DNA of 64,000 nucleotides from NCBI GenBank assembly GCA_963837925.1, contig CAWIPK010000003.1, positions 1,358,441-1,422,440 on the forward strand, read 5' to 3'. Shown in pieces: positions 20,417 to 33,472 of the stretch. The notes below the pieces were generated by a model. It was not told where the DNA came from and did no database searches. It was given only the letters and a program-made list of their open reading frames with translations. Every line of letters starts with the position of its first letter. Position 1 is the first letter of the stretch. Position numbers and translations under genes: made by a program. Origin of the DNA: an uncultured Chloroflexia bacterium (GTDB lineage Bacteria > Chloroflexota > Anaerolineae > CG2-30-64-16).

Positions 20417-20819
20417 GAAGAAGAGCCGCGGCGCCTCCGTCCGGCTGCCCCGCTGGCCGTGCAAGATCACACTTTGCGTCACGCGTTTTTCCTCCCTATC
20501 CGCCTGTGCGGCTGGAACGCGGCTCTCCGGCGAGAAGGCTCGGCCCGGTCTGTGCCCTTCGCCTGGCGGCATGGCCCCTCTCTCCCCAAGCGACAGGAAG
20601 AACGAGCAGTCGGCCACAATCGTACGCCCCTGCCTTGCCGTTGTCAATTGGGTAGCCGAGCGCGAAATCTACCAGTTGCGCTATAATGGGTTTGCGGTGA
20701 GCGCCGGCAGCCGGGCAAATCCCCGGGACCCAGAACAGGAAGCGCGACCGTCGGGCCGGCGGACCGCCACCTTCTCGTGCGGTCGCGCATGAGACAGAGA
20801 TCACCAAGGACGATGAATC

Positions 20820-23800
20820 GTGCCAGACTTCAAACACTATACCCTGCGCCAATTAGACGAGGCTCTGCTCGCGCTCGAGCAGGCCGTCTACACCCCGGTC
20901 GGCGAGCTCGAAATACGCGCCTGGTGCACGCCCGAGCCGCTGCCTTTCGACGAGCGCACGCGCGGGCGCGAGCTGGCCCTCCGCGTGGGCGACAAGTGGG
21001 GCGACCTCTTCGATTGCGCCTGGTTTCGCTTCAGCGGCCAGGTGCCTGCGGCCGCGGCCGGCAAGAAAACCGTGCTCTTGCTCGACGTCCACGGCGAGCT
21101 GTGCGTCTTCGACGGGGACGGCACCCCGCTGCGCGGCCTGACCACCGTCACCTCGGCCTTCGAGTTCACGCTCGGCATGCCCGGCAAACGTGTGCTGCTG
21201 TTGAGCGAACACGCCGCCGGCGGAGAGCCGGTCGAGGTCTGGGCCGACGCGGGCAGCAACGACTTGTTCGGTAACCTCCAGGGAGGGGGGACGGTCCGCG
21301 AAGCCTCGATCGCGACCTGCGATGAAACCGTGCGCGCGCTCTATTACGACTTCGAGGTGCTGCTGGACTTCCTGAGCACGCTTCCGCCCGAACTCACCCC
21401 GCTACGAGCAGGTTCTGACCGGCCTCAACGACGCTCTACATGCGCTCTATGCCGGGCTCCCGCAGGCAGCCGGCGCGGCGCGGGGGTTGCTGGCGCCGCA
21501 CCTCGCGCGGCGCGGCGGCGACCCGGCCCTCGAGGTCAGTGCCGTCGGCCACGCGCACATGGACCTGGGCTGGCTCTGGCCGGTGCGTGAGACGATACGG
21601 AAGAGCGCGCGCACCTTCGCGACCGCCATCGCCAACCTGGAGCTCTATCCCGACTACGTATTCGGGGCCAGCCAACCCCAGCAGTATCAATGGATGAAGG
21701 AACGCTACCCGACCCTCTACGCGAAGATCAAGCAGAAGGTGGCCGAGGGACGCATCGAGCCCCAGGGCGCGATGTGGGTCGAGGCCGACACCAACGTCTC
21801 GGGCGGCGAGGCGCTCGTGCGCCAGATACTGCAAGGCGAGCGCTTCTGGCGGGAAGAATTCGACAAGACGATCGATTACCTGTGGCTGCCGGACGTCTTC
21901 GGTTACAGCGCAGCCTTGCCTCAGATCCTGCGCCGGTCCGGCGTGCCCTACTTCTCGACCCAGAAGCTGTCCTGGAGCCTGATCAACGTCTTCCCACACC
22001 ACTCTTTCCACTGGCAGGGGATCGACGGCAGCCGGGTGCTGGCGCACATGCTGCCCGAGGAAACCTACAACAGCCCGGCCTTGCCGCGCTCCGTGCGCAA
22101 GATCGAACGCAACTACAAAGAGAAGGGGGTCTCCGGACACAGCCTGCTGGTCTTCGGCATCGGCGACGGTGGGGGCGGCCCCGGCGAGGAGCATCTCGAA
22201 CGACTTGACCGGCTGCGGAACCTGGAGGGGCTGAGCCCGGTCAGGCAGGAGCCGGTGGAGGCCTTCATCGCCAAGTGGCGAGAGGATGCGGAGCGCTTCC
22301 CGACGTGGAGCGGCGAGCTCTACCTGGAGCGGCACCAGGGCACGTTGACAACCGAGGCGCGCAACAAGTGGTACAACCGGAAGCTCGAGCTTGCGTTGCG
22401 GGAACTGGAGTGGACGTCGGTCGTAGCCGGTTTCGTCGGCCAGAAAGCCTACCCGGCTGCCCGGCTGCAGGCCATCTGGCGCGAGGTCTTGCTGTACCAG
22501 TTCCACGACATCCTGCCAGGCTCGTCGATCAAGCGCGTGTACGACGAGAGCCTGGCTCGCTATGCGCTCCTGCTAGACGAGGTGGAGAAGCAGATCGCGG
22601 ACAATGACGCCTGTCTGGCCGGGCGGATCGATACCCTGGGCACGGTCGCGCCGTTGCTCGTGCAGAATTCGCTGTCCTGGGCGCGCCGCGAATGGCTGCC
22701 GGTGGGTGAGAGGTGGCTGCAGGTGACGGTTCCGCCGATGGGCTATGTGGTGGTGGATGCGGCCGGGGAGGCGGTACCGGACTCGACGGGCGACCCGCGG
22801 CCGGGAACGCCGGGAGTGGCGGCGACCGAGCGCAGCCTGGAAAACGATCTGCTGCGGGTGCAATTCGGCACGGATGGGGATATCAGCTCGCTTTACGACA
22901 AGCGGCTGCAGCGCGAGCTGATCCCGGCCGGCCTGACGGCCAACCGGCTGGCCGTATACCGGGATTTGGGCGACGCCTGGGACTTCCCGATGGACTATGC
23001 CGAGCAGACGCCACGTAGGATGAAGCTGGTGGGATCGAGCGCCAGGATAGAGGGGCCACGGGCCGTCCTGCAGCAAACCTATCGGCTAGGTCACTCGGAA
23101 CTGCAGCAGACGACTATCCTGACACATGGCAGCGCGCGCCTTGACTTCGTCAGCCGGCTGCACTGGCGCGAAACCGAGGCCATGCTGCGCACGAGCTTCC
23201 CGGTGGCCGTGCACGCCGAGGATGCCACCTTCGAGATCCAGTTCGGGCACGTGCGCCGGCCCACCCACCGCAACACCACCTGGGACCTGGCCCGCGACGA
23301 AGTTGCCGGTCACAAATGGGTCGACCTCTCGCAGCGGGATTACGGGGTAGCCCTTCTGAACGATTCTAAGTACGGGCATAAGGTCAAGGGGCAGGTCATC
23401 GACCTGAACCTGCTGCGCAGCGTACCCTACCCGGGGCCGCGGCTGGTGAACGACGCCAACCTGGCGCCGGGTGAGCCAAACCATGACTACACAGACCAGT
23501 GCGACCATCGATTTATCTACTCGCTGTTCCCTCACCCCGGCGATCATGTCGCCGGCCGGGTAGCGCAGGCGGCGTACGAACTCAACGTGCCCGTGCGAAC
23601 TCTCCCCCTACCCGTGCAGAGCGGGCCGCTGACGGCCCTGACCTCGTTCCTCGAAATCGACGCGCCCAATGTGATCGTGGAGGCGGTCAAGCGGGCCGAA
23701 GATGGGGCCGGCGTCATCGTGCGTCTGTATGAGGCTGAGGGCCAGGCGGCGCGCGCCGACTTGCATTTCGGCTTCCCGGTGGCAAGGGCGCGCGAGACGG

Positions 23801-23904
23801 ACTTGCTGGAGGCGCCGTTGGCCGTGCTGGCGCCGCAGAGAGATCGGCTGAAGCTCGAGTTCGCGCCGTTCGAGATAAAGACGCTGCGCCTGGAAATGGC
23901 ATAG
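20820..23904 (+). pseudogene. GH38 alpha-mannosidase gene interrupted by a +1 frameshift near 21397-21402 (either a real pseudogene or an assembly indel)
   Basis: ORF 20820..21590 (frame 3) is a GH38 N-terminal region ending ...LLDFLSTLPPELTP. ORF 21487..23904 (frame 1) continues (open upstream to 21376) ...PRYEQVLTGLNDAL...AVGHAHMDLGWLWPVRETIRKSARTF plus the full catalytic and C-terminal domains. The combined product is ~1028 aa, typical for bacterial GH38. The junction lies in a CACCCC run. Confidence 0.8.
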
Positions 23905-23922
23905 ATCGCGCCGGCGGCGGAC

Positions 23923-23951
23923 TTGGATTAAATCGTAATTTCGGGTACAAT
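23923..23951 (+). promoter_or_regulatory. Candidate sigma70-like promoter TTGGAT-N17-TACAAT upstream of the SGNH hydrolase gene
   Basis: TTGGAT (~23923) and TACAAT (~23946) with a 17-nt spacer, ~60 nt upstream of the AAAGGA RBS and the ATG at 24013. Confidence 0.35.
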
Positions 23952-24012
23952 TGCCACGTTCCGGCGGCGGGTCGTCTGCCACCGGCCAAGCAACGAGGTG
24001 AAAGGATCGAAG

Positions 24013-25296
24013 ATGCAACGGAAGGTGATCGTGGCCGGCGCAACGCTGGCTGCTCTCCTGCTGATGACACGCGTCATCAGCGGACTTGACAGCAGCGCCG
24101 CCCGCCCCCCCCTACCGGCACCGGCGGTCATCGCTCAGGCTGCCCAACCGGCAGCCGCCCCACTCGCGACCGCAGACCACTCCTCCGCCGATACTCGCCA
24201 GCCGGCCGCACGACGGCAGCCTGGCACGACGGCCCTTCCGGTCTTGCACGGCTCTGCGCCCGCAGCCGGTAAGCTGGTCGCGCCTCTGGCGTCCCAGAGT
24301 AACCCAGCCGCGCCTGCTTCCCGGCCGGCCAACGAGCATTCGGCGGCCAGTCGGAATACATCGAGCGCGGCGCTGACCGGCGCGGCGCAGGGTCCCGCGC
24401 TGCCCGTTGCCGAGGCCGAGAACGAATCGGGGCAGGGGGCGGCAGCGGAGCCGGCCGCAGCCGCCAGTGCGCCCACGCGGCACGCCATCGCCATGGTAGG
24501 GACCGGAATTCTACCGGCCGTGGCATCGGCCCCGGCTCTGGACAGGCCTATCAACGGGATCCCGGTGGAAGCCGTCCTGGTGCTGCCCGACAACGTGAAG
24601 GCGAACGTGCGTGAGATCTATGCCAGGGGTCAGCGCATCGGCCGCGACCCGCGCGCCTTCTCCAAGATAGGCGACAGCACGATGGTCTGGCCGGCCTTCA
24701 TGTCTGCCTTCGACTGGGGCTACAACCTGGGGCCATATTCCTACTTGCAGACGGCGATCGGGCAGTACGCCGGGTCGTTCAGCCGGGTCAGCTTGGCCGC
24801 CGTCAAAGGCATCAACTCCTGGCGCCAGTTTGACCCGGGCTCCGCCGACCTGCAGTACTGCCGTTCGAACGAGGGGCCTGTGCAGTGCGAGTTCCGGCTG
24901 CACAACCCAAGCATCGTCTTCATCCGGCTGGGCGCTAACGATTGGGGCGAGCCCGGCGAGTTCCAGCAAAGCATGGAACGGATCGTCGAGTACTTCCTGA
25001 ACCGGGGTGCTGTCCCCGTGTTGGGCACCAAACCCGATCGCCTCGAGGGCCCTGACAACACGCTGAATAAGATTGTCGGCCAGATCGCCGCCGAATACGA
25101 GATCCCGCTCTGGGACTACGACCAGGTGGCCGCGACCGTGCCGAACCGGGGCCTGCTGCCGGATATGACTCACTTCCAGGACGGCGGCCCGCACAACTAC
25201 TCTTCGCCCGGCACGTTCCAACATGGAGATTCGCTGGAGGACCTGACCGCCCTGATGATGTTGGACGCACTCGACCGGATCATCGCGGCCGAGTAG
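24013..25296 (+). CDS. Secreted/membrane-anchored SGNH (GDSL) hydrolase with a long Ala/Pro-rich linker
   Basis: N-terminal TM/signal (VIVAGATLAALLLM), then a ~150-aa low-complexity A/P-rich region. The SGNH domain carries block I FSKIGDSTMVW and a DxxH-like C-terminal block. Confidence 0.7.
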   Translation: MQRKVIVAGATLAALLLMTRVISGLDSSAARPPLPAPAVIAQAAQPAAAPLATADHSSADTRQPAARRQPGTTALPVLHGSAPAAGKLVAPLASQSNPAAPASRPANEHSAASRNTSSAALTGAAQGPALPVAEAENESGQGAAAEPAAAASAPTRHAIAMVGTGILPAVASAPALDRPINGIPVEAVLVLPDNVKANVREIYARGQRIGRDPRAFSKIGDSTMVWPAFMSAFDWGYNLGPYSYLQTAIGQYAGSFSRVSLAAVKGINSWRQFDPGSADLQYCRSNEGPVQCEFRLHNPSIVFIRLGANDWGEPGEFQQSMERIVEYFLNRGAVPVLGTKPDRLEGPDNTLNKIVGQIAAEYEIPLWDYDQVAATVPNRGLLPDMTHFQDGGPHNYSSPGTFQHGDSLEDLTALMMLDALDRIIAAE

Positions 25297-25359
25297 ACCC
25301 GAGCGCCCCGGAAGGACGTGCTCCCGTTTCCCGCCTCGTCTGCCGGCCACGCACCACCA

Positions 25360-26709
25360 TCAGGGCGCGCTGACAGCGGCGGCGATCAGAGCGGCGTAGG
25401 CGGCGGCTCCGGCGGGCCGAAGGTGTATCCCGTCATCCCAGAACCACTCCGGATGCCGGCTGCCGGCTGCGCTCCAGTCCACAAGCACGGCGCTCGGGTA
25501 GCGCTTGATTCCCTCGGCCAGCACGGTATCGTTGGGAGCCTCCCAGACGCGCGGCACCCTGACATTCACGAACACCACCCGTCGCTGTCCCTGCAGAACC
25601 TGCATCATCTCGTCGAACTGGCGAGCGCTGAAGGTGCCATTGGTCCCCAGGTGCACGATCACCACGCCGCCTAGCTGGCCGGCCGCCTTGCGCTCCTCCA
25701 GCACCTGGATCGAGGGTGTCACCTGCCGGCTGACCGCGGCGTCGACGTGCAGGTGCGGGATAGCGGCCATCAGTTCAGGGACGGCGCCGACCATCACGGA
25801 GTCGCCGATCGCAAACACGCATTCCGCACAAGCGCCGTCAGTCGCCGAGACCGTGGCCGTAGGCGTCGCCGAGGCGGCCAGGGCGCCGGGGGGCGGCCGC
25901 GGCTGCCAGGAACGGCGCAGCCTGGCACTGCCCCCCGCCGGCCCGGCCAAGGGGCCGGCTGCGGACGGCATCGGAGCGGTCGCGTAGGGTGTCGGCGGCG
26001 CAGTCGTGCGAGGCGGCACTGAGGCAGTCGCCGAAGGCGTCAGCGGTAGAGTCGCCGCAGGCGTCAGCGGGCGACCGGCCATTACGCCCACGGAAGCCGC
26101 GTCCAACTGGGGCAGGAACGCTGAAACGGCGGTGCATACCTGAGGGGGATAGGCCGGCGCGCAGCGCGCCAGCAAGCTGCGGGCGGAGCTCAGGATCGCA
26201 CGGGGGTCGGGCGTGGGCGGCGGCTCAGCTGCCTCTGCAGGGGCTGGGGCAGCTGAGGCCAGTCCTCCCGACCTCGAGCTCGGTCCGCGACCGGCGCTGT
26301 ACGGGCTTTCGTCGGCGGTCTGGCCCGAAAGCGGGCCGGCTGCGACCGGCGGGTGAGGCGTGGCGTCGGCGGCGCCGGCACCTGAGGGCGCCATAGAGGC
26401 CCCCGTGGAAACCGCTCCCCGCTCGCCGGTCAGCTCGACTTGCATGATCGCTGCCGGCAATTGCACGCCAGGCGCTTCGCTCGCCTGGGTGTCGATCGAC
26501 GGCACGGCCAGATAGGCAGGGGGTGGAGGTAGTTCGGCCGCCGCCACGTTAGCGATCAGCAGGCCGCCGCAGCCAAGGACGACGGCGGTCGCGCTGCGCC
26601 GGCCGCCTGCGAGGCGCCAGCGTCGCACGCCTGATGCCGCACGGACCGTCGCCCCAGGCCCGGCTGGCCGCGGCAGTGACGATGAGCATCGCCTCGCGCC
26701 GGCGGACAA
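25360..26709 (-). CDS. SGNH hydrolase domain protein (last TM helix, Pro/Ala-rich linker and SGNH domain), probably the surviving C-terminal part of a decayed AT3-SGNH (OafA-like) acyltransferase
   Basis: Block I FAIGDSVMVGAVPEL, block III VVIVHLGTNG and block V DDGIHL. An N-terminal TM helix (ATAVVLGCGGLLIANVAAA) precedes a ~200-aa P/A/T-rich linker. The exact start is uncertain. Confidence 0.6.
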   Translation of the reverse strand: MSAGARRCSSSLPRPAGPGATVRAASGVRRWRLAGGRRSATAVVLGCGGLLIANVAAAELPPPPAYLAVPSIDTQASEAPGVQLPAAIMQVELTGERGAVSTGASMAPSGAGAADATPHPPVAAGPLSGQTADESPYSAGRGPSSRSGGLASAAPAPAEAAEPPPTPDPRAILSSARSLLARCAPAYPPQVCTAVSAFLPQLDAASVGVMAGRPLTPAATLPLTPSATASVPPRTTAPPTPYATAPMPSAAGPLAGPAGGSARLRRSWQPRPPPGALAASATPTATVSATDGACAECVFAIGDSVMVGAVPELMAAIPHLHVDAAVSRQVTPSIQVLEERKAAGQLGGVVIVHLGTNGTFSARQFDEMMQVLQGQRRVVFVNVRVPRVWEAPNDTVLAEGIKRYPSAVLVDWSAAGSRHPEWFWDDGIHLRPAGAAAYAALIAAAVSAP

Positions 26710-26968
26710 GGGGCAGCAACAGGAAAAACAAGGGTGGCCAGATCAGGTAGAACTATTCCTCGACGGCCAGCGACCACAAATGCTGGAGCAGCGGCGGCCG
26801 GCCGACCGTTAGGAAATAGGACCGGTGCGGCAGGCGGGCATGGTAGAGGATGACAGCCAGCAGCGCGAGCGCGCGCAGACCGTCGAGCGCGGCGATGCAC
26901 CCCAGGCTCGCGCCCTGCGCGGGCGGGCTGCCGTCGGCCCGCAGTTCGACCAAGGACCTGATCCCCAT
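26549..26968 (-). pseudogene. N-terminal remnant of an acyltransferase-3 (AT3/OafA) membrane domain with an in-frame amber codon inside the conserved VEEQFY motif and internal deletions
   Basis: ORF 26753..26968 encodes LDGLRALALLAVILYH...LWSLAVEE, then TAG, and the same frame continues FYLIWPPL (the track shows 7 codons to the TTG start of ORF 26549..26731). The canonical AT3 motif is WSLxVEEQFYLxWP. The LYH-to-WSL distance is ~25 aa versus ~100 aa in intact AT3, and the frame differs from the downstream SGNH ORF. Confidence 0.5.
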
Positions 26969-27038
26969 GCCGGATGGCCTACCCCAACGACAGCCACGCT
27001 GTTACCGTGAACGCGTTTGTCTCACCTGAGCAATCCCA

Positions 27039-27521
27039 TTATGCGTTCTCGCGGTACGGATTGTCAAAGCGGAAGAAGTTGCTCTGATTGCCGTTCTTAA
27101 GGTTCTCCTGGTACAGAAAGACCAACTGGCGATCGTCGAACGTCTTGAACCACTGGTCCCAGCTCACTTCCTGCAGCCTATCACCCCCATAGCCCGGGAA
27201 GTTGAAGCGCAGGACGCCCAGGTGCTCGTCATGCTCGGTGCCCGGGACGGTGGCCGGCACCGCCCCTCGTTCTTCGGCCCAGTGCCGAATAACGTCGTGG
27301 CTGCGTGTCGCCAAAGACTGTCCTTTGTGATCCTGATGCTCGTCCGTGCTGCCGATCCACTTGGCGCGCTTGGTGGAGGCAGACAGCTTGTCGCCGACCT
27401 TCTTCAGGTACTTTCGATCCTCGGCCGAGGCGTTCTGCCAGCGCTCGTTCGTGTCCGAACTGGCTTTGCCCTCCGACTTATCCTTTGACTGAGCCTTCGT
27501 GCTCGATTTGGTGTCGGCCAT
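27039..27521 (-). CDS. Hypothetical hydrophilic protein (Lys/Ser/Thr-rich N-terminus, conserved C-terminal region)
   Basis: ATG at M122 of ORF 27039..27884 with GGAGGG RBS. Sequence MADTKSSTKAQSKDKSEGKASSD...FNFPGYGGDRLQEVSWDQWFKTFDD. Its own ~200-bp upstream region has lower GC. Confidence 0.45.
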   Translation of the reverse strand: MADTKSSTKAQSKDKSEGKASSDTNERWQNASAEDRKYLKKVGDKLSASTKRAKWIGSTDEHQDHKGQSLATRSHDVIRHWAEERGAVPATVPGTEHDEHLGVLRFNFPGYGGDRLQEVSWDQWFKTFDDRQLVFLYQENLKNGNQSNFFRFDNPYRENA

Positions 27522-27723
27522 GCAGTTCCCTCCGATATCCGCCCGGCACGCGCTTACCGTGGCAAGCCGCCGTATGCTGGCCGGGCGCTGAGATCGATAG
27601 GCGCCGGTGAGCGCATATCCATCTTCAATCTTAACGGAGAAGAGACCAACAGCCTGTAAGGTAGACAATAATCTTTGGTATACGCAGGGTCCCAAGGGAA
27701 CCTGAAGCCTCGGCAGCAGCCGG

Positions 27724-28581
27724 TCAGAAACCGCGCAGGACGGTGCTTTCGCGCCTGGGCAGGCCTTTCTTTGGGGTACGTTTGAGGACAACGTATTGCA
27801 GGCCGTGCTCAAGGCAAAAGGCGCGCTTCTCGGGCCTGTCACCGTCCTCGTTGACGGCGTAGATGTCCGGCTTGAGACGCTCAATGTCGGGCGCGGCGTC
27901 CATCCAGCCCTGGCCGGAGGTGATCAGCGCCTGTTTGACGAAGCGGATCGCGCCGGCCATGTAGCGCCGCTCCGCCTGCGGGAACAGCGGATGGCCCTCG
28001 CCCTTCAGATAGCGGACACTGGCGTCATTGCCGACCGCCACGTACAGGTCTCCGAGCGCCGAGACCTCCTCGAAGAACCGAATGTGGCCGGAATGGAGCC
28101 AGTCAAAGCAGCCGGTGACGAAGACTTTTTTCCGATCGCCCGGACCGGACACCATGGCGGCGCCGGAGTCAGAGGGGAACCCGGCCACGTCGCTGGCGCT
28201 CACGAGGTGGTGTTCGATGCCCTGGGCACGGCAGAAGGCGTGCCGGCGCGCGCCGGCTTCAGCGTGCGCCGCAAATAAGAGCGCCGGCTCACCCTCGTCG
28301 ACGGCCCAGACTGACGGCCGCTCGCCCTCGATCGCCGGCAGACCAAAGCGATCCGGCGGGCCATTGACTGACCAGACCCGGTCCACAAAGCGAATCGCTT
28401 CCAGAAGGTAGCGGCGTTCGCTCTCCGGGAACCGCGGCGCCTGCCCCTCGAGCATGCCCACCGCAGCGTCGCTCCACAGCAGAACGTGCAGCGAATCGCC
28501 CCGGCGCCGAGCCTCCTCGAGAAAGCGCACGTGGTGGGAGCGGAGGTCGTCGAAACTCCCGCTGACGATGACGGTCCTCAC
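27724..28581 (-). CDS. Tandem cytidylyltransferase-like (CTP_transf_like, TagD/RfaE-domain-II-like) nucleotidyltransferase protein
   Basis: Two repeats each carry the (H/T)xGH nucleotidyltransferase signature: VIVSGSFDDLRSHHVRFLEEARRRG and VFVTGCFDWLHSGHIRFFEEVSALG. Both are followed by an RYxxxAIRFV-like segment. Confidence 0.7.
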   Translation of the reverse strand: MRTVIVSGSFDDLRSHHVRFLEEARRRGDSLHVLLWSDAAVGMLEGQAPRFPESERRYLLEAIRFVDRVWSVNGPPDRFGLPAIEGERPSVWAVDEGEPALLFAAHAEAGARRHAFCRAQGIEHHLVSASDVAGFPSDSGAAMVSGPGDRKKVFVTGCFDWLHSGHIRFFEEVSALGDLYVAVGNDASVRYLKGEGHPLFPQAERRYMAGAIRFVKQALITSGQGWMDAAPDIERLKPDIYAVNEDGDRPEKRAFCLEHGLQYVVLKRTPKKGLPRRESTVLRGF

Positions 28582-28582
28582 C

Positions 28583-29413
28583 TCACTCCTGCTCCTCGCC
28601 CAACCTGACGCTCACCCGCAGTGCGCCGGGCACGGGCTCCTCCGAGACCACGTACAGGTAACCGCCCCCACACCCAGAGTACATCGCGCCAGGATAGCGC
28701 GCCTGGTAGTAACCGAGCAGGCCGGCCAGGTCGACCGTGATGGACGGATGGCGGACGGTCTGCGGGAGCACGGCCGCCCAGCACTGCATGCACTCGTTGA
28801 ACGAGGCGCCCAGGGCTCGTGCGTCCCGCGCGAGGATGGCGGCGTAACAATCGGCCCCCGATCGACCCAGGCGGCGGATCCACTCAGAGTCAAGATTCTT
28901 GATTCCCAGGGGGTTGTAGCCGGACGGGCGCTGGTTGACGGGCAGCAGGTAGATGACTTCTTCAAGCCAGCGTGCTACGAGGGGATCGCAATTGGTCTCG
29001 ATGTGGACGGGAAAGAGCCCGCCCTCGTATGAATAGTCGTAATCCAGGCGGCTGATGCCCGGGTAGATCAGCCCGATCATGTCTTGCGATCCGGATGGTT
29101 CATGTGCGCCCTGGTTCTCGGCCAAATACAAGTCCCGGACAAGCCGCTGCGGGTCGCCGCGCGGGAGCTCCCCCTGCCACAGGGCGGCCGCCACGCGGCG
29201 GGTGCTGGTGCCGAGCCCACAGCGGTCCATGAAACGGCTGGTGGGCTGCAGGGCAACGGTGACCATCGAGCCGGTCGGACTTGGATTCAACCTGGAAAGG
29301 AACGGCTGGTCGATCCAGCCGCCGGCGAGGGCCATGCGGTAGGGCAATTTGCCGATCACATCGCTCAGCCGCGGTGGAGCGGCAGGTCCGGTCGCGGCGT
29401 TCAATGCGGTCAT
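28583..29413 (-). CDS. GHMP-family sugar kinase (HddA/fucokinase-like), 276 aa
   Basis: Motif I MALAGGWIDQPF, motif II CGLGTSTRRVAAAL (PxGxGLGSS-like) and motif III GAMYSGCGGGYLYVV. The gene overlaps or abuts both neighbours. Confidence 0.6.
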   Translation of the reverse strand: MTALNAATGPAAPPRLSDVIGKLPYRMALAGGWIDQPFLSRLNPSPTGSMVTVALQPTSRFMDRCGLGTSTRRVAAALWQGELPRGDPQRLVRDLYLAENQGAHEPSGSQDMIGLIYPGISRLDYDYSYEGGLFPVHIETNCDPLVARWLEEVIYLLPVNQRPSGYNPLGIKNLDSEWIRRLGRSGADCYAAILARDARALGASFNECMQCWAAVLPQTVRHPSITVDLAGLLGYYQARYPGAMYSGCGGGYLYVVSEEPVPGALRVSVRLGEEQE

Positions 29414-29416
29414 GTG

Positions 29417-30454
29417 TTAACTCACTGTGTGCTGGCCCGCCTTGCGGGCATAATACTGCTTCTCGATCCAGGCATAGGTCTTCGCCAGGCCCTCGTGGAA
29501 CGGGGTCGCCGGCTCCCAGCCCAACACCTGTTTGATGAAGGTGTTGTCGCTGTTCCGCCCGGCCACACCGCGCGGGGCACCCAAATCATACCTACGTTCG
29601 AGCTTGACTCCGCCAATTTCTTCGGCCAGGCTCACAAGCCCATCAACCGAGATCAGCTCGCTCGAGCCCAGGTTGATCGGTGTGGCTATCAACTCGTCGC
29701 AGTGCATAATCATGTCGATGCCGTACGTGCAGTCGTCGATATACATGAAGCTGCGCGTCTGCGTGCCGTCACCCCAGATGACGATCTCGTGCTGCCCCAG
29801 GTCCTTGGCGGCTATCACCTTGCGGCTGATGGCAGCCGGCGCCTTCTCACGACCACCGTCCCAGGTGCCAAACGGGCCGTACACGTTGTGGAAGCGGGCC
29901 AGGTGCGTCTCGAGATGCCGTTCCTCCCAATATTCCTGGCAGAAGATCTCGGACATCAGCTTTTCCCAGCCGTAGCCCCGCTCCGCCATCGCCGGGTAGG
30001 CGTCGGATTCCTTGAGGGCGCGCACGTTGGGGTCCTGCTGGAGTGTAATGTTGTAGGCGCAAGCGGAGGACGAGAAGAAGTAACGCTGGACACCGGCCTG
30101 GTAGGAAGCCTCGATTAGGTGAGTGTTGATCAGGATGCTGCGCAGGCATTCCACCCGATTGCGCTCGATAAAGCCCATACCGCCCATATCGGCGGCCAGG
30201 TTGTAGACCTCGACCGCGCCTGCCGCGGCGCGCACGCAGTTGGGGTACTCACTGAGGTCCAGGCAGAGGCTCTCGACACCCGGCAACCGTTGATACCACT
30301 GCGGCAGCGGTTTCTTGTCAACGGCACGAATGCGACTGAAGCCCTGGTCATGGAAGCGCTTCACCAGGTTGCCGCCGATGAAGCCACCGGCCCCGCCGAC
30401 GACGATCAGGTCGTCCTTGCCCAAAACGGTCTCTGCTGTCTGATTACGGCTCAT
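29417..30454 (-). CDS. GDP-mannose 3,5-epimerase (GME)-like NAD-dependent epimerase (SDR superfamily)
   Basis: GGAGGFIGGNL Rossmann motif, YNLAADMGGMGFI, catalytic YGWEKL (GME has YGLEKL), RFHNVYGPFGTWDGGREKAPAAISRK (GME RFHNIYGPFGTWKGGREKAPAAFCRK), WGDGTQTRSF and GVAGRNSDN (GME GVRGRNSDN). Collinear similarity to plant and bacterial GME is recalled from memory. Confidence 0.8.
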   Translation of the reverse strand: MSRNQTAETVLGKDDLIVVGGAGGFIGGNLVKRFHDQGFSRIRAVDKKPLPQWYQRLPGVESLCLDLSEYPNCVRAAAGAVEVYNLAADMGGMGFIERNRVECLRSILINTHLIEASYQAGVQRYFFSSSACAYNITLQQDPNVRALKESDAYPAMAERGYGWEKLMSEIFCQEYWEERHLETHLARFHNVYGPFGTWDGGREKAPAAISRKVIAAKDLGQHEIVIWGDGTQTRSFMYIDDCTYGIDMIMHCDELIATPINLGSSELISVDGLVSLAEEIGGVKLERRYDLGAPRGVAGRNSDNTFIKQVLGWEPATPFHEGLAKTYAWIEKQYYARKAGQHTVS

Positions 30455-30505
30455 GTGCTTGTCTCCTCCAAACGGGCCGGGATCGCCCGATCGCGGCCGC
30501 TCTTC

Positions 30506-31525
30506 TCATGTAGTTGCCCGGCTGACCGCGGCGCCGCTTGAGCGGCGGATGATCAACTCGACGGGCAGCACGATCTCTTGGTGCCCCGGCGGGGCGCTGC
30601 CTTCCAGGCGGCTGAGCAGCAGCTCGGTGGCCCGCTGTCCCATGGTGTAGGCGGGCTGGGCAGCGACGGTCAGGAAGGGATCCATGACGATCGCGGCCGG
30701 CAGGTCGTCAAAGGCCACCAAGGCAACATCTTCGGGGACCCGCAAGCCGGCCTGCCGCAGGAAGCGATAGGCTCCGATGGCGATGAAGTTGTTGGCGGCG
30801 AACAGGGCTGTAGGTCGGGGTTTCAGCGCCAGGGCCTGCTCAGCCATGACCTGGCCGCCCGCCTGAGTGTACTCGCCGAAGAAGACCAGGCGCGGGTCCT
30901 CGGCCAGGCCGGCCCCGGCCAACGCACGCCGGTACCCGGCCACGCGGTCGGCCGCGGTCGAGACATCCTCGGGACCGGCCAGGACGGCGGTGCGGCGGTG
31001 GCCCAGGTTGAGGAGCAGGCAGGTCAGATCGTAGGCGCCTTGCTCCGAGTCGCAGCGCACCACGTCTACGCCGCCCCCCGGCATACGACGATCGAGCACC
31101 ACCACGGGCACGGCCTGACGATGCAGAAACTCAATCGGCTCGGCGCTGCTGCGCGCCGGCACGAGCAGCACGCCGTCAGTTTGCTTCTGCGCGAGGATGT
31201 TGAGCTGCTCAGCCTCCTCCGCCGCAGACTCGTCGGTGTTGCAGAAGATGACGTTGAAGCCGTTCTCGCTGGCAACGTCTTCTACGCCGCGGGCGACCGT
31301 GGTGAAGAACGGGTTCGTGATGTCGGTTAGGATCAGGGCCAGCGTCTTCGTCTGCTTGAAGCGCAGGCTGCGGGCCAGGCTGTTGGGAACGTAGCCGAGC
31401 TCGGCAATGGCCTGCTCGACCCGCTCACGCGTTTCGGTGCTGATGTAGCCCGATCGATTCAGCACGCGTGAGACGGTCATCGTGGAAACGCGCGCTCGCT
31501 CGGCTACGTCACGGATAGTGCTCAT
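30506..31525 (-). CDS. LacI-family transcriptional regulator
   Basis: N-terminal HTH MSTIRDVAERARVSTMTVSRVLN plus a periplasmic-binding-fold sugar-binding domain. It lies 52 bp upstream of the epimerase gene on the same strand. Confidence 0.85.
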   Translation of the reverse strand: MSTIRDVAERARVSTMTVSRVLNRSGYISTETRERVEQAIAELGYVPNSLARSLRFKQTKTLALILTDITNPFFTTVARGVEDVASENGFNVIFCNTDESAAEEAEQLNILAQKQTDGVLLVPARSSAEPIEFLHRQAVPVVVLDRRMPGGGVDVVRCDSEQGAYDLTCLLLNLGHRRTAVLAGPEDVSTAADRVAGYRRALAGAGLAEDPRLVFFGEYTQAGGQVMAEQALALKPRPTALFAANNFIAIGAYRFLRQAGLRVPEDVALVAFDDLPAAIVMDPFLTVAAQPAYTMGQRATELLLSRLEGSAPPGHQEIVLPVELIIRRSSGAAVSRATT

Positions 31526-31688
31526 CCTACCAATACCTGTCGCTAGCCGGCGCATGGCCGTACGCCGGTATGAATGATCGCCAACGGGCTTGAACGGCCC
31601 GGCCAGCAAATCCAGCCGCGCGAGCGCACCGCGATGTACACGCACGCACGGTGTCTCGATTCAGCCCCCCCATAGAGCGCTGGCGGCG

Positions 31689-33176
31689 CTACGAAACCAG
31701 CTTCAGCACGTAGGCATGCTCACAGGGCCTCCGGTCGGGCAGGCGCACGACCAGGCCTTCCGCCGAACGACGCCAATCCAGCGGCCCATCATACCCCAGC
31801 AGCCTCACGGTCTGCAACTGCTCGGGGGCCTGCCCGCTGGCCAACGAACGGACGGTGAGCGTGCTGCCGGCGCCGGGCCAGGCCAAACAAATGGCGTAAA
31901 GGGTATTGTCGCGGCGGGTGAAGCGGAAATCCTGTGCAGTGAATGGCGCGCGCGCCGTATCCTTGAACTGTCCTTCCGGGACCTCGGTCGGCCCTTCGCC
32001 GAAACGCAGCCACGGCCGGGTGCCGTAGATCGCCTCGCCGTTCACGGCCAGCCAGCGTCCAATCTCCCGCAATACCGCCTGCTCGGGCTCGGGGATAGTG
32101 CCGTCCGGACGCGGGCCGATGTTGAGCAGCAAGGCGCCGTTCTTGCTGACGACGTCGACGAGATCCTGAACCAGCCACTCGGCGCTCTTGTAATCCTGGT
32201 CCGTGACGTAGCCCCAGGAATTCTTGGAAATCGAGGTATCGTTCTGCCAGAAGAGCGGTCGGATATCGTTCAATTGGCCGCGTTCCAGGTCGAGCACGGC
32301 GGCACCGGTGGGGAAGGCGCTGAACTTGTAGTTCACGGCGACGCCCTGGCCCCACTCCGCCCCACGATTGTAGTAGTAGGCGGCGAACTTTTGCAGATGC
32401 CCCGCAGCCGTAAACGCCCGGTGGCCGATCCACCAGTCGAACCAGATCAACTGCGGCCGGTACTTGTCGACCAGCTCACACGTGCGCGCTAACCAGTCGT
32501 TCAGATGCTCCGCGCTCGGATCGGGAAGGCAGTCCAGATCGTGCTCGCGACCGTCCTCGATGACGACGGCCGGACCGTAGAAGTCCTGCGTCTGCGGGTC
32601 CTGCACGTCTGAAGGGAACTTGCGCCCACCGTTCATGAACCACCAATGCTCCGCCCGATGGCTGGAAAGGCCGAAGACGAGGCCCGCCTCGCGCGCGGCC
32701 GCCGCCAGCTCGCCGACGACATCGCGCCTCGGCCCCATCTGGGCCGCCGTCCAGCGCGAGAAGCTGCAGTCATACATCGCAAAGCCGTCGTGGTGTTCGG
32801 CCACCGGCACCACGAATTTGGCGCCGGCCTGGCGGAACAAGTCCACCCACGCGGCCGGGTCGAAGTGCTGGGCGCGGAACTGCGGGATAAAGTCCTTGTA
32901 GCCGAATGCCGTGAGCGGGCCGTAAGTCGCTACCTGGTGCTCGTACTCGGGCGTGCCTTGCAGGTACATGTTGCGCGGATACCATTCACTGCCAAAGGCC
33001 GGCACGCTGTAGACTCCCCAGTGGATGAAAATTCCGAACTTGGCGTCCTGATACCAGTCGGGCACCTGGTAGGCACAGAGCGAGTCCCAATTTGCCGCAT
33101 ACGGGCCGGCGACGACGCCTTCCTCGACGCGGCGGAGAGCGGCGTTGACCTGCGCGACAGTGGCTTGCGAATCCAT
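31689..33176 (-). CDS. GH29 alpha-L-fucosidase (family members can also act on alpha-L-galactosides)
   Basis: AKFGIFIHWGVYSVPAFGSEWY, FVVPVAEHHDGFAMYD and WFDWWI are the GH29 catalytic-domain hallmarks. ATG at M14 of ORF 31689..33215 with a GAGGAG RBS. Confidence 0.9.
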   Translation of the reverse strand: MDSQATVAQVNAALRRVEEGVVAGPYAANWDSLCAYQVPDWYQDAKFGIFIHWGVYSVPAFGSEWYPRNMYLQGTPEYEHQVATYGPLTAFGYKDFIPQFRAQHFDPAAWVDLFRQAGAKFVVPVAEHHDGFAMYDCSFSRWTAAQMGPRRDVVGELAAAAREAGLVFGLSSHRAEHWWFMNGGRKFPSDVQDPQTQDFYGPAVVIEDGREHDLDCLPDPSAEHLNDWLARTCELVDKYRPQLIWFDWWIGHRAFTAAGHLQKFAAYYYNRGAEWGQGVAVNYKFSAFPTGAAVLDLERGQLNDIRPLFWQNDTSISKNSWGYVTDQDYKSAEWLVQDLVDVVSKNGALLLNIGPRPDGTIPEPEQAVLREIGRWLAVNGEAIYGTRPWLRFGEGPTEVPEGQFKDTARAPFTAQDFRFTRRDNTLYAICLAWPGAGSTLTVRSLASGQAPEQLQTVRLLGYDGPLDWRRSAEGLVVRLPDRRPCEHAYVLKLVS

Positions 33177-33256
33177 CTGCGATGCTCCTCTCAGATTCGG
33201 GGGCGGGACCAACAATCAAAGCCGCGCCCACAGTCAGCAGGCGCCGGCCTCGAGAT

Positions 33257-33272
33257 ATGTTACGCATAACAT
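33257..33272. promoter_or_regulatory. Near-palindromic 16-mer ATGTTACGCATAACAT, a candidate LacI-family operator in the divergent fucosidase/ABC intergenic region
   Basis: TGTTACG/CATAACA half-sites resemble the TGnnAnCGnTnnCA pattern of LacI-family operators. A TATAAT (~33373) and TTGACA (~33407) lie downstream towards the ABC operon. Confidence 0.3.
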
Positions 33273-33472
33273 AGCACGCGGGCGGGGCTTTGTCAAACCG
33301 AGAAGGGTGCGCGCCTGCGCTGAAAGCTCTCACAGGAGAACTCTGCCCCTGTTCAATCTGGGCTGTTGTGCATATAATACTTCTGCAAGTTTCTCACAAC
33401 AAAACTTTGACAAGTACCCTGAATTCAGAGCAGCGAGCGTCGAGGGCTGCCTGACGGCCGCCGCGGGCCCGG

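What the first reader, a model, noticed from the sequence alone, without database searches (positions are those of the whole stretch)
25360..26968. Decaying OafA-like AT3-SGNH O-acyltransferase with an amber codon exactly in the VEEQFY motif
Upstream, and in a different frame from the SGNH ORF, lies the N-terminus of an acyltransferase-3 domain: LDGLRALALLAVILYH then WSLAVEE-TAG-FYLIWPPL. The stop replaces the invariant Gln of WSLxVEEQFYLxWP, consistent with a CAG to TAG nonsense mutation. The spacing between the LYH and WSL motifs is ~75 aa too short, and the C-terminal SGNH part (last TM, P/A-rich linker, SGNH fold) is shifted out of frame. Together these indicate step-wise inactivation of a surface-polysaccharide O-acetyltransferase, possibly leaving a free-standing secreted esterase.
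Basis: seen in the sequence. Interest (0 to 1): 0.5.

Follow-up and report, generated by a model that had tools for sequence, protein, structure and literature searches.

The report
Recently broken OatA-like cell-wall acetyltransferase gene
This is the wreck of a two-domain membrane enzyme gene (AT3 plus SGNH, closest to the peptidoglycan O-acetyltransferase OatA), disabled by two large deletions, a stop codon and a frame shift while a related organism keeps it intact at the same spot: an ordinary young pseudogene.

Summary
On the minus strand, 26968..26663 encodes pieces of an acyltransferase-3 (AT3) domain with TAG (26755..26753) at the Gln of WSLAVEEQFY. A 449-codon ORF in another frame (26709..25360) carries the last membrane helix, a Pro/Ala-rich linker and an intact SGNH domain.

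Three metagenome contigs (L084, L086, L087) are about 80% identical in DNA on both flanks. They hold an uninterrupted 858-aa AT3-SGNH gene at this position. Against it the window has:
- lost 279 nt (residues 48-140, including the GGFxGV/FFxISG and RxxR motifs);
- changed CAG to TAG at residue 165;
- lost about 525 nt (residues 198-372);
- gained 1 nt just before helix 11, which changes the frame.

The SGNH domain keeps its catalytic residues. [quoted passage not shown]

dN/dS against the intact ortholog is about 0.2 in both the AT3 remnants and the SGNH domain. The decay is therefore recent, and nothing shows the SGNH part is separately maintained. No internal promoter or ribosome-binding site was found, so a surviving free-standing esterase is possible but unsupported. 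This is a known kind of event and of low interest.

The parts
27038..27067 (-). Promoter-like site TTGACA-18 nt-CATAAT (11 of 12 matches), overlapping the stop codon of the upstream gene, about 70 nt before the native ATG. It is the probable native promoter of the AT3-SGNH gene and is still present.
   Evidence: 1 site found against 0.2 expected in shuffles. The sequence is identical in ortholog L084. Function is inferred, not shown.
26828..26968 (-). AT3 remnant 1: native start ATG 26968 through helix 1 (LDGLRALALLAVILYHARLP). The R-X10-H motif is retained.
   Evidence: Aligns to ortholog residues 1-47. HMM positions 14-47.
26827..26828 (-). Junction of deletion 1: 279 nt (93 codons, in frame) missing relative to the ortholog (its residues 48-140).
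   Evidence: clean gap, L084 2054..2332, with 2-nt microhomology; the lost residues include [14 protein letters not shown] and RRARRL (RxxR).
26756..26827 (-). AT3 remnant 2a: HRSYFLTVGRPPLLQHLWSLAVEE.
   Evidence: HMM positions 141-164.
26753..26755 (-). Amber codon TAG replacing the Gln of WSLAVEEQFY (ortholog Q165, codon CAG).
   Evidence: GAGGAGCAGTTT in L084 against GAGGAATAGTTC in the window. Q is present in all motif instances. TAG is also the normal stop of four neighbouring genes.
26663..26752 (-). AT3 remnant 2b: FYLIWPPLFFLLLPLVRRREAMLIVTAAAS.
   Evidence: HMM positions 166-195.
26654..26663 (-). Junction of deletion 2, followed by codons RAW in the old frame. About 525 nt (ortholog residues 198-372, roughly helices 6-10) are missing.
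   Evidence: HMM positions 196-382 are absent. The exact break point is ambiguous by a few bases (GCCG microhomology).
26644..26653 (-). Diverged 10-nt patch that is 1 nt longer than the ortholog's 9 nt. It shifts the reading frame into that of the SGNH ORF.
   Evidence: alignment. Net loss between anchors is 577 to 47 nt, that is 530 nt, not a multiple of 3.
26536..26595 (-). Helix 11 (SATAVVLGCGGLLIANVAAA), preceded by RRWRLAGGRR and followed by ELPPPPAYLAVPS. This is the helix that carries the SGNH domain across the membrane in intact proteins.
   Evidence: aligns to the same segment of 10 intact fusions. (hydropathy). (coordinates).
25825..26535 (-). Pro/Ala/Thr-rich linker, fast-evolving.
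   Evidence: dN/dS 0.69 against L001. The ortholog's linker is about 46 codons longer.
25363..25824 (-). OatA-type SGNH domain, uninterrupted. Ser304 (GDS), Asn357 (GTNG), Asp426 and His429 (DGIH) are all present.
   Evidence: all 25 invariant family columns kept. (family profile against 6VJP, E 8.7e-35). (38% identity). (coordinates).
25360..26709 (-). Mechanical ORF (449 codons from TTG) that contains helix 11, the linker and the SGNH domain. No evidence that it is translated.
   Evidence: no Shine-Dalgarno-like sequence before TTG 26709 or GTG 26628.

Best explanation
The locus is a young pseudogene of an OatA-like AT3-SGNH O-acetyltransferase.

[quoted passage not shown] Helix 11 and a linker hold the SGNH domain outside the cell, where it puts the acetyl group on a cell-envelope glycan. 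For OatA that glycan is the C6-OH of MurNAc in peptidoglycan.

In this genome the AT3 domain has lost 268 of its roughly 390 residues through two deletions, including motifs shown to be essential in OafA. It also carries an amber codon at an invariant Gln and a +1 frame shift before helix 11. Acetyl transfer across the membrane by this gene is therefore abolished. That follows from the sequence together with published mutagenesis.

The downstream SGNH part is still an open frame with all catalytic residues. Most likely it is simply not yet degraded; this last step is inference.
For: - Syntenic intact ortholog. L084, L086 and L087 match the window at about 80% nt identity on both sides (window 20802-25965 and 27527-33304). 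They carry one 858-aa ORF with PF01757 (E 2e-29) plus SGNH at this position.
- Lesions mapped base by base against it and independently with an HMM of 18 intact homologs.
- The lost segments hold the GG-F/Y-xGV-D motif and the RxxR motif. Alanine mutants of these abolish OafA activity (PMC7448272, read).
- The fused architecture is the norm. About 50 of 80 species-representative loci are single-ORF fusions.
- dN/dS against the intact ortholog is 0.25 and 0.24 for the two AT3 remnants, 0.25 for helix 11 and 0.17 for the SGNH domain. All parts were under purifying selection for most of the divergence, so inactivation is recent.
- No start signals for the SGNH ORF were found.
- TAG is the ordinary stop codon of neighbouring genes.
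Against: - The SGNH domain has no disabling lesion. Its non-synonymous branch length in the window lineage (0.034-0.056) is not higher than in the intact sister lineage (0.057-0.091). Continued use of the SGNH part would give the same result.
- Both large deletions are multiples of three (279 and about 525 nt). That is about a 1-in-9 coincidence if deletion lengths are random. It could mean the downstream frame was still being selected when they occurred.
- The native promoter-like site is intact, so the remnant may still be transcribed.
- Read-level data were not available, so none of the lesions is verified against raw reads.
Confidence: 0.8

Rival explanations
1. Domain fission in progress. 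After loss of the AT3 domain, the helix 11-linker-SGNH part is still made from an internal start (TTG 26709 or GTG 26628) on the transcript from the native promoter. Helix 11 would act as an N-in/C-out signal anchor. The exposed SGNH domain would then work alone as an esterase, or with an acetyl donor supplied in trans.
For: - The 449-codon ORF is intact and all catalytic and invariant residues are kept.
- An Arg-rich stretch plus a 20-residue hydrophobic helix looks like a signal anchor.
- Non-synonymous change in the window's SGNH branch is not accelerated.
- Both large deletions are in frame.
- The native promoter-like site is kept.
- Genuine free-standing relatives with their own signal peptide or lipobox exist: about 19 of 80 loci and proteins such as P0015, P0030 and P0070.
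Against: - No Shine-Dalgarno-like sequence precedes either start, while several neighbouring genes have GGAGG-like sites.
- No internal promoter-like site was found.
- The AT3 remnants show the same low dN/dS as the SGNH domain, so low dN/dS is explained by recency alone.
- Departures from conserved columns do not differ significantly: AT3 3 of 35, SGNH 1 of 42.
- A long open frame is weak evidence in 65% G+C DNA.
- The N-termini of natural stand-alone relatives lack the helix 11 junction motif PPxPxYL, so they give no precedent for this route.
- OatA-type SGNH domains receive their acetyl group from their own AT3 domain (PMC9487903).
Confidence: 0.13
2. Assembly or sequencing artefact: the real genome has an intact gene.
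For: - Reads could not be inspected.
- A second gene 1.5 kb away (GH38, +1 A at about 21390) is also frame-shifted relative to the ortholog. Single-base indels are typical sequencing errors.
Against: - There are four independent lesions of three different kinds. Two are clean deletions of 279 and about 525 nt without flanking repeats, and one is a C-to-T substitution. Neither type is a typical assembly error.
- Five other genes compared with orthologs (27527-33304) are collinear in one frame, so the window is not generally error-ridden.
- Even if the 1-nt insertion were an error, the deletions alone remove essential motifs.
Confidence: 0.05
3. The SGNH ORF was always an independent gene of the free-standing SGNH family, and the AT3 fragments upstream are an unrelated remnant.
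For: The 120 best database hits to the SGNH domain are all short proteins (126-284 aa) without an AT3 domain. Some sit on long contigs with no AT3 gene nearby.
Against: - Many of those hits are fragments from 1-2 kb contigs.
- In species-representative genomes the closest relatives are fusions.
- The window's ORF contains helix 11 and the PPPPAYLAVPS junction, homologous to the same segment of intact fusions.
- The syntenic ortholog is a single fused ORF.
Confidence: 0.02

Closest known systems
OatA, peptidoglycan O-acetyltransferase A of Staphylococcus aureus / Streptococcus pneumoniae (AT3-SGNH; C-terminal domain structures 6VJP, 6WN9, 5UFY, 5UG1)
   Same: - The ancestral architecture is the same: N-terminal AT3, helix 11, linker, C-terminal SGNH (ortholog L084).
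- The SGNH family profile matches SaOatA-C over its full length (E 8.7e-35), and the window domain is 38% identical to it.
- GDS Ser, block III Asn and the DxxH pair are conserved.
   Different: - The window copy is a pseudogene: the AT3 domain is gutted and the frame is broken.
- The linker is far longer, about 290 residues in the ortholog.
- The source is probably a Chloroflexota-like organism, inferred from the names of the closest hits, not a Firmicute.
- The acceptor glycan is untested.
OafA/OafB, Salmonella O-antigen O-acetyltransferases (AT3-SGNH)
   Same: The two-domain plan is the same. The AT3 motifs are shared (R/K-X10-H, GG-F/Y-xGV-D, RxxR, WSLxxEExFY-type segment). Mutagenesis of OafA shows that the motifs deleted here are essential (PMC7448272).
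   Different: No solved Oaf SGNH domain is matched by the family profile at E <= 1. Oaf SGNH domains have an extra helix and a structured SGNH extension that OatA lacks (PMC7448272).
PatA/PatB and other split systems (membrane acyltransferase plus separate SGNH protein)
   Same: If the SGNH part were still made, it would resemble a separate extracytoplasmic SGNH partner. Free-standing relatives of this SGNH family do exist.
   Different: PatB belongs to another SGNH family (DUF459). It is matched only at E 0.08-0.7. No partner acyltransferase is present in the 64-kb window.

Membership tests
Acyltransferase-3 (AT3, PF01757) domain | Significant match to the family profile over the whole domain | tested here: not met
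   The repaired remnant scores 27.7 bits, below the 31-bit cut-off, and covers only profile positions about 1-20 and 118-162 of 326. The intact ortholog scores 103 bits over positions 3-320. The window sequence is a fragment derived from the family, not a functional member.
Acyltransferase-3 (AT3, PF01757) domain | R/K-X10-H motif in helix 1 | tested here: met
   RALALLAVILYH is present at 26968..26828.
Acyltransferase-3 (AT3, PF01757) domain | RxxR motif, and the GG-F/Y-xGV-D / FFxISG motif of fused proteins | tested here: not met
   Both lie in ortholog residues 48-140, which the window lacks. They are essential in OafA (PMC7448272).
Acyltransferase-3 (AT3, PF01757) domain | Ten-helix membrane core in one reading frame | tested here: not met
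   HMM positions 48-140 and 196-382 are absent. There is an amber codon at position 165 and a frame shift before helix 11.
SGNH-AT3 family, OatA type | SGNH catalytic Ser (block I GDS), block III Asn, block V Asp-x-x-His | tested here: met
   S304, N357, D426 and H429 of the 449-codon ORF. All 25 invariant columns of the family alignment are kept.
SGNH-AT3 family, OatA type | Sequence similarity to solved OatA C-terminal domains | tested here: met
   Family profile: 6VJP E 8.7e-35, 5UFY E 2.4e-15. Window domain: 38% identity over 146 residues. Identity of these PDB entries taken from PMC9487903.
SGNH-AT3 family, OatA type | SGNH domain fused to an AT3 domain through helix 11 in one polypeptide | tested here: not met
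   This holds for the ortholog and for about 50 of 80 related loci. In the window the two parts are in different frames, separated by a stop codon.
SGNH-AT3 family, OatA type | O-acetylation of peptidoglycan MurNAc (or another envelope glycan) | not testable with these tools
   Requires biochemistry or cell-wall analysis.
OafA/OafB-type SGNH | Structured SGNH extension and additional helix alpha8 | tested here: inconclusive
   No Oaf structure is matched by sequence at E <= 1. No structure prediction was run.
Pseudogene | Intact ortholog at the syntenic position, plus disabling lesions in the copy studied | tested here: met
Pseudogene | Relaxed selection (dN/dS approaching 1) | tested here: not met
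   dN/dS is 0.17-0.25 in all parts against the ortholog. This is read as recent inactivation; it does not by itself show function.

The most novel reading that the evidence does not exclude
The locus is a snapshot of domain fission. After the AT3 domain was destroyed, helix 11 serves as a ready-made signal anchor, and the OatA-type SGNH domain persists as a free-standing surface enzyme. This would show one route by which the many stand-alone members of this SGNH family could arise.
Probability: 0.12. Interest if true: 0.4.

Novelty: new member of a known kind. Interest (0 to 1): 0.15.

Why it matters
It matters little beyond correct annotation. The locus should be called a pseudogene of an OatA-like AT3-SGNH O-acetyltransferase, not a "lysophospholipase L1-like esterase" or a hypothetical protein. 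The organism probably lacks whatever envelope O-acetylation this gene provided, unless a paralog exists elsewhere in its genome.

The case also shows how gene callers turn the tail of a broken fusion gene into an apparently independent SGNH protein. This may inflate the count of stand-alone members in protein databases.

Tried and rejected
1. The first protein search returned only short, AT3-less proteins. For a while this suggested the SGNH ORF belonged to a free-standing family. It was rejected after the scan of species-representative genomes and the syntenic ortholog showed that fusion is the ancestral state here.
2. The closest contig from that search (L001) is syntenic but ends inside the linker, so it could not show the upstream state.
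3. I looked for a helix 11 junction motif in natural stand-alone relatives, as a precedent for fission by AT3 loss. None was found.
4. I tested for differential constraint between the AT3 remnants and the SGNH domain, using pairwise and three-point dN/dS and departures at conserved columns. No significant difference emerged.
5. I searched for repeats or mobile elements that could have mediated the deletions. Only chance G+C-rich matches appeared. A weak ISAzo13 hit in the upstream ORF (E 0.026) is not significant.
6. I tried to locate the source contig through an exact look-up of the neighbouring epimerase. It is not on record.
7. I considered stop-codon reassignment (amber read as Gln). This was rejected: TAG ends four neighbouring genes, and the deletions disable the gene regardless.
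8. I looked for a paralogous AT3 or SGNH gene in the window. There is none.

Full report
**What is in the sequence**

The window is 65% G+C. On the minus strand, a frame opening at ATG 26968 reads MGIRSLVELRADGSPPAQGASLGCIAALDGLRALALLAVILYHARLPHRSYFLTVGRPPLLQHLWSLAVEE. Then comes TAG (26755..26753), followed by FYLIWPPLFFLLLPLVRRREAMLIVTAAAS. A second frame carries a 449-codon ORF (TTG 26709 to stop 25360). It begins with an Arg-rich stretch and a 20-residue hydrophobic helix (SATAVVLGCGGLLIANVAAA, 26595..26536). It continues through a long Pro/Ala/Thr-rich linker and ends in a 154-residue domain with GDS, GTNG and DGIH motifs.

**Is it really AT3, beyond chance?**

With the TAG read as Gln, the upstream frame matches Pfam PF01757 at E 1.8e-6 in two stretches. 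Profile positions of about 20-118 are skipped and nothing matches after position 162. A database search returns 463 hits. The 120 listed best are AT3 proteins (119 carry PF01757), the best at E 1e-20. They include Roseiflexaceae, Kouleothrix and other Chloroflexia entries. Their sequences show the missing middle directly, for example P0121...[28 protein letters not shown]...RRARRLLP...NWGLIFSQRSYFETVGRPPLLQHLWSLAVEEQFYLLWP.

**Is the SGNH ORF part of the same former gene?**

The first search with the SGNH domain was misleading. Its 120 best hits are 126-284 aa proteins without AT3. Many come from 1-2 kb contigs, and a few are genuine stand-alone secreted or lipoproteins.

A scan of one genome per species gave a clearer picture. 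Of the 80 best loci:
- about 50 have the SGNH relative in a single 600-1000 aa ORF that also contains WSLAVEEQFY and a complete AT3 domain;
- about 10 have a complete AT3 in another frame (mostly long-read MAGs);
- about 19 are stand-alone.

tblastn and MAFFT against intact fusions place the window's pieces consistently: helix 1, a gap, the WSLAVEEQFY region, a gap, then helix 11 with the junction PPPPAYLAVPS, the linker and the SGNH domain. An HMM of 18 intact fusions matches the window only at positions 14-47, 141-164, 166-195 and 383-655 of 657. No paralog was found elsewhere in the 64 kb.

**The orthologous locus**

A metagenome scan found contigs L084, L086 and L087, which are 99% identical to each other in this protein. 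They align to the window at about 80% nt identity on both sides (window 20802-25965 and 27527-33304). Between those flanks they carry one uninterrupted 858-aa ORF with a full PF01757 match (E 2e-29).

Base-level alignment shows four lesions in the window:
1. A clean 279-nt deletion, junction 26828|26827. It removes ortholog residues 48-140, which include [14 protein letters not shown] and RRARRL.
2. CAG to TAG at Q165.
3. A deletion of about 525 nt, junction near 26663. It removes residues 198-372, roughly helices 6-10.
4. A diverged 10-nt patch (26653..26644) that is one base longer than the ortholog's 9 nt, which shifts the frame.

The net loss between alignment anchors is 530 nt. The break point of deletion 2 is ambiguous by a few bases, so the split into 525 + 6 - 1 is the best decomposition but not the only one. 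The junctions have only 2-4 nt of microhomology, and no repeats or mobile elements are nearby.

**Consequence for function**

In OafA, alanine substitutions in the R/K-X10-H motif, in the GG-F/Y-xGV-D motif (F35, D39), in both RxxR arginines and at S112 abolish or strongly reduce activity (PMC7448272). The window keeps R-X10-H but has lost the next two motifs and more than half of the membrane core. The AT3 function of this gene is therefore gone. This rests on sequence evidence combined with published mutagenesis.

**What kind of AT3-SGNH enzyme was it?**

A profile of the SGNH domain matches the C-terminal domain of S. aureus OatA (6VJP, 6WN9) at E of about 1e-34 over its whole length. It matches S. 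pneumoniae OatA (5UFY, 5UG1) at about 1e-15, and PatB only at E 0.08-0.7. No Oaf structure appears at all. The identities of these PDB entries were taken from PMC9487903. The window domain is 38% identical to SaOatA-C. The gene is thus OatA-like rather than OafA-like, and the actual acceptor glycan is untested.

The neighbourhood is about glycan use and sugar-nucleotide metabolism rather than an O-antigen cluster. It holds a GH38 alpha-mannosidase, a secreted GDSL-like protein, a cytidylyltransferase-like protein, an epimerase, a LacI regulator, an alpha-L-fucosidase and an ABC sugar transporter.

**How old is the damage, and is the SGNH part still used?**

| Comparison with the intact ortholog | dN/dS |
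|---|---|
| AT3 remnant 1 | 0.25 |
| AT3 remnant 2 | 0.24 |
| Helix 11 | 0.25 |
| SGNH domain | 0.17 (0.23 against L001) |
| Neighbouring GDSL-like gene (against L001) | 0.25 |
| Neighbouring GH38 gene (against L001) | 0.13 |

With outgroups, the window's SGNH branch has a non-synonymous length of 0.034-0.056. The intact sister lineage has 0.057-0.091. The SGNH domain is therefore not accelerated, but neither are the AT3 remnants, which are certainly dead. The simplest reading is that inactivation is recent relative to the roughly 0.6 synonymous substitutions per site separating the two lineages.

Departures from columns conserved at 80% or more in 52 intact homologs are 3 of 35 for the AT3 remnant and 1 of 42 for the SGNH domain, which is not significant. 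The only promoter-like site is the native one (TTGACA-18-CATAAT, 27067..27038). Neither TTG 26709 nor GTG 26628 is preceded by a Shine-Dalgarno-like sequence, although several neighbouring genes have one. The N-termini of natural stand-alone relatives lack the helix 11 junction motif.

The free-standing-esterase idea therefore remains possible. Three things leave it open: helix 11 has the right N-in/C-out topology, both big deletions are in frame, and the native promoter is kept. It has no positive support, and I give it about 0.13.

**Artefact?**

Reads were not available. TAG is a normal stop codon here. Five neighbouring genes are collinear with their orthologs in one frame. One nearby gene is not: GH38 carries an extra A at about 21390 that splits it into two frames. 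This could be a real second lesion or a sequencing error.

The same caution applies to the 1-nt insertion in the AT3 gene. It does not apply to the two large deletions or to the C-to-T change. I give a full artefact about 0.05.

**Verdict**

The locus is a recently and repeatedly hit pseudogene of an OatA-like AT3-SGNH O-acetyltransferase, with an intact ortholog at the same position in a related organism. This is a known kind of event in a known family, and its interest is low.

Noticed in passing
window 20802-23928 (+), break at about 21388-21392: The GH38 alpha-mannosidase is split into two frames by one extra A (CCGCCCGAACTC against CCGCCCG-ACTC in the ortholog, whose frame is open for 1050 codons). 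It is either a second disrupted gene 1.5 kb from the AT3-SGNH pseudogene or a single-base sequencing error.
   Followed up: partly
window 23998-25296 (+): A 432-aa protein with an N-terminal signal-like segment, a long Pro/Ala-rich linker and a weak GDSL_2 match (E 1e-5, below the cut-off). It is convergent with the SGNH ORF and conserved in L001, L084 and L088 (76% aa identity to L001, dN/dS 0.25). This makes a second secreted SGNH-like protein next to the pseudogene.
   Followed up: partly
window 27042-27521 (-): A 160-aa ORF (MADTKSSTKAQ...FRFDNPYRENA) with a good Shine-Dalgarno-like site and no Pfam or NCBIfam family. It is conserved upstream of the AT3-SGNH gene in the orthologous contigs. 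Its last codons contain the promoter-like site of the AT3-SGNH gene. The 281-aa ORF 27039-27884 listed mechanically is probably an over-extension of it.
   Followed up: no
window 27724-30454 (-): A run of three genes: a protein with two cytidylyltransferase-like stretches (PF01467), a 276-aa protein without any Pfam match, and an NAD-dependent epimerase/dehydratase. They look like a sugar-nucleotide pathway and are syntenic in L086 and L087.
   Followed up: no
loci L005, L008, L014, L015, L034, L046, L049, L060, L072, L080: In about 10 of 80 species-representative genomes the AT3 domain is complete, but it lies in a different frame from the SGNH part (one or two frame changes). Most are long-read MAGs, so these may be indel errors. 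L005 and L034 (Rubrobacter MAGs) could be real young pseudogenes.
   Followed up: partly
loci L047, L051, L056; protein P0083: Some free-standing relatives of this SGNH domain carry an N-terminal membrane anchor followed by an SH3-like segment (P0083 has PF06347/PF08239). This architecture is different from the AT3 fusion.
   Followed up: no
(protein database): For both the SGNH and the AT3 queries, all of the 120 best database hits were short (at most 284 and 244 aa). Many were fragments from short contigs or from frame-shifted long-read assemblies. Length and architecture statistics from such hit lists are biased against full-length fusions.
   Followed up: partly
window 26827/26828 and about 26663: Both large deletions in the AT3 part are multiples of three (279 and about 525 nt). 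By chance this has a probability of about 1 in 9. It might mean the downstream frame was still under selection when they arose.
   Followed up: partly
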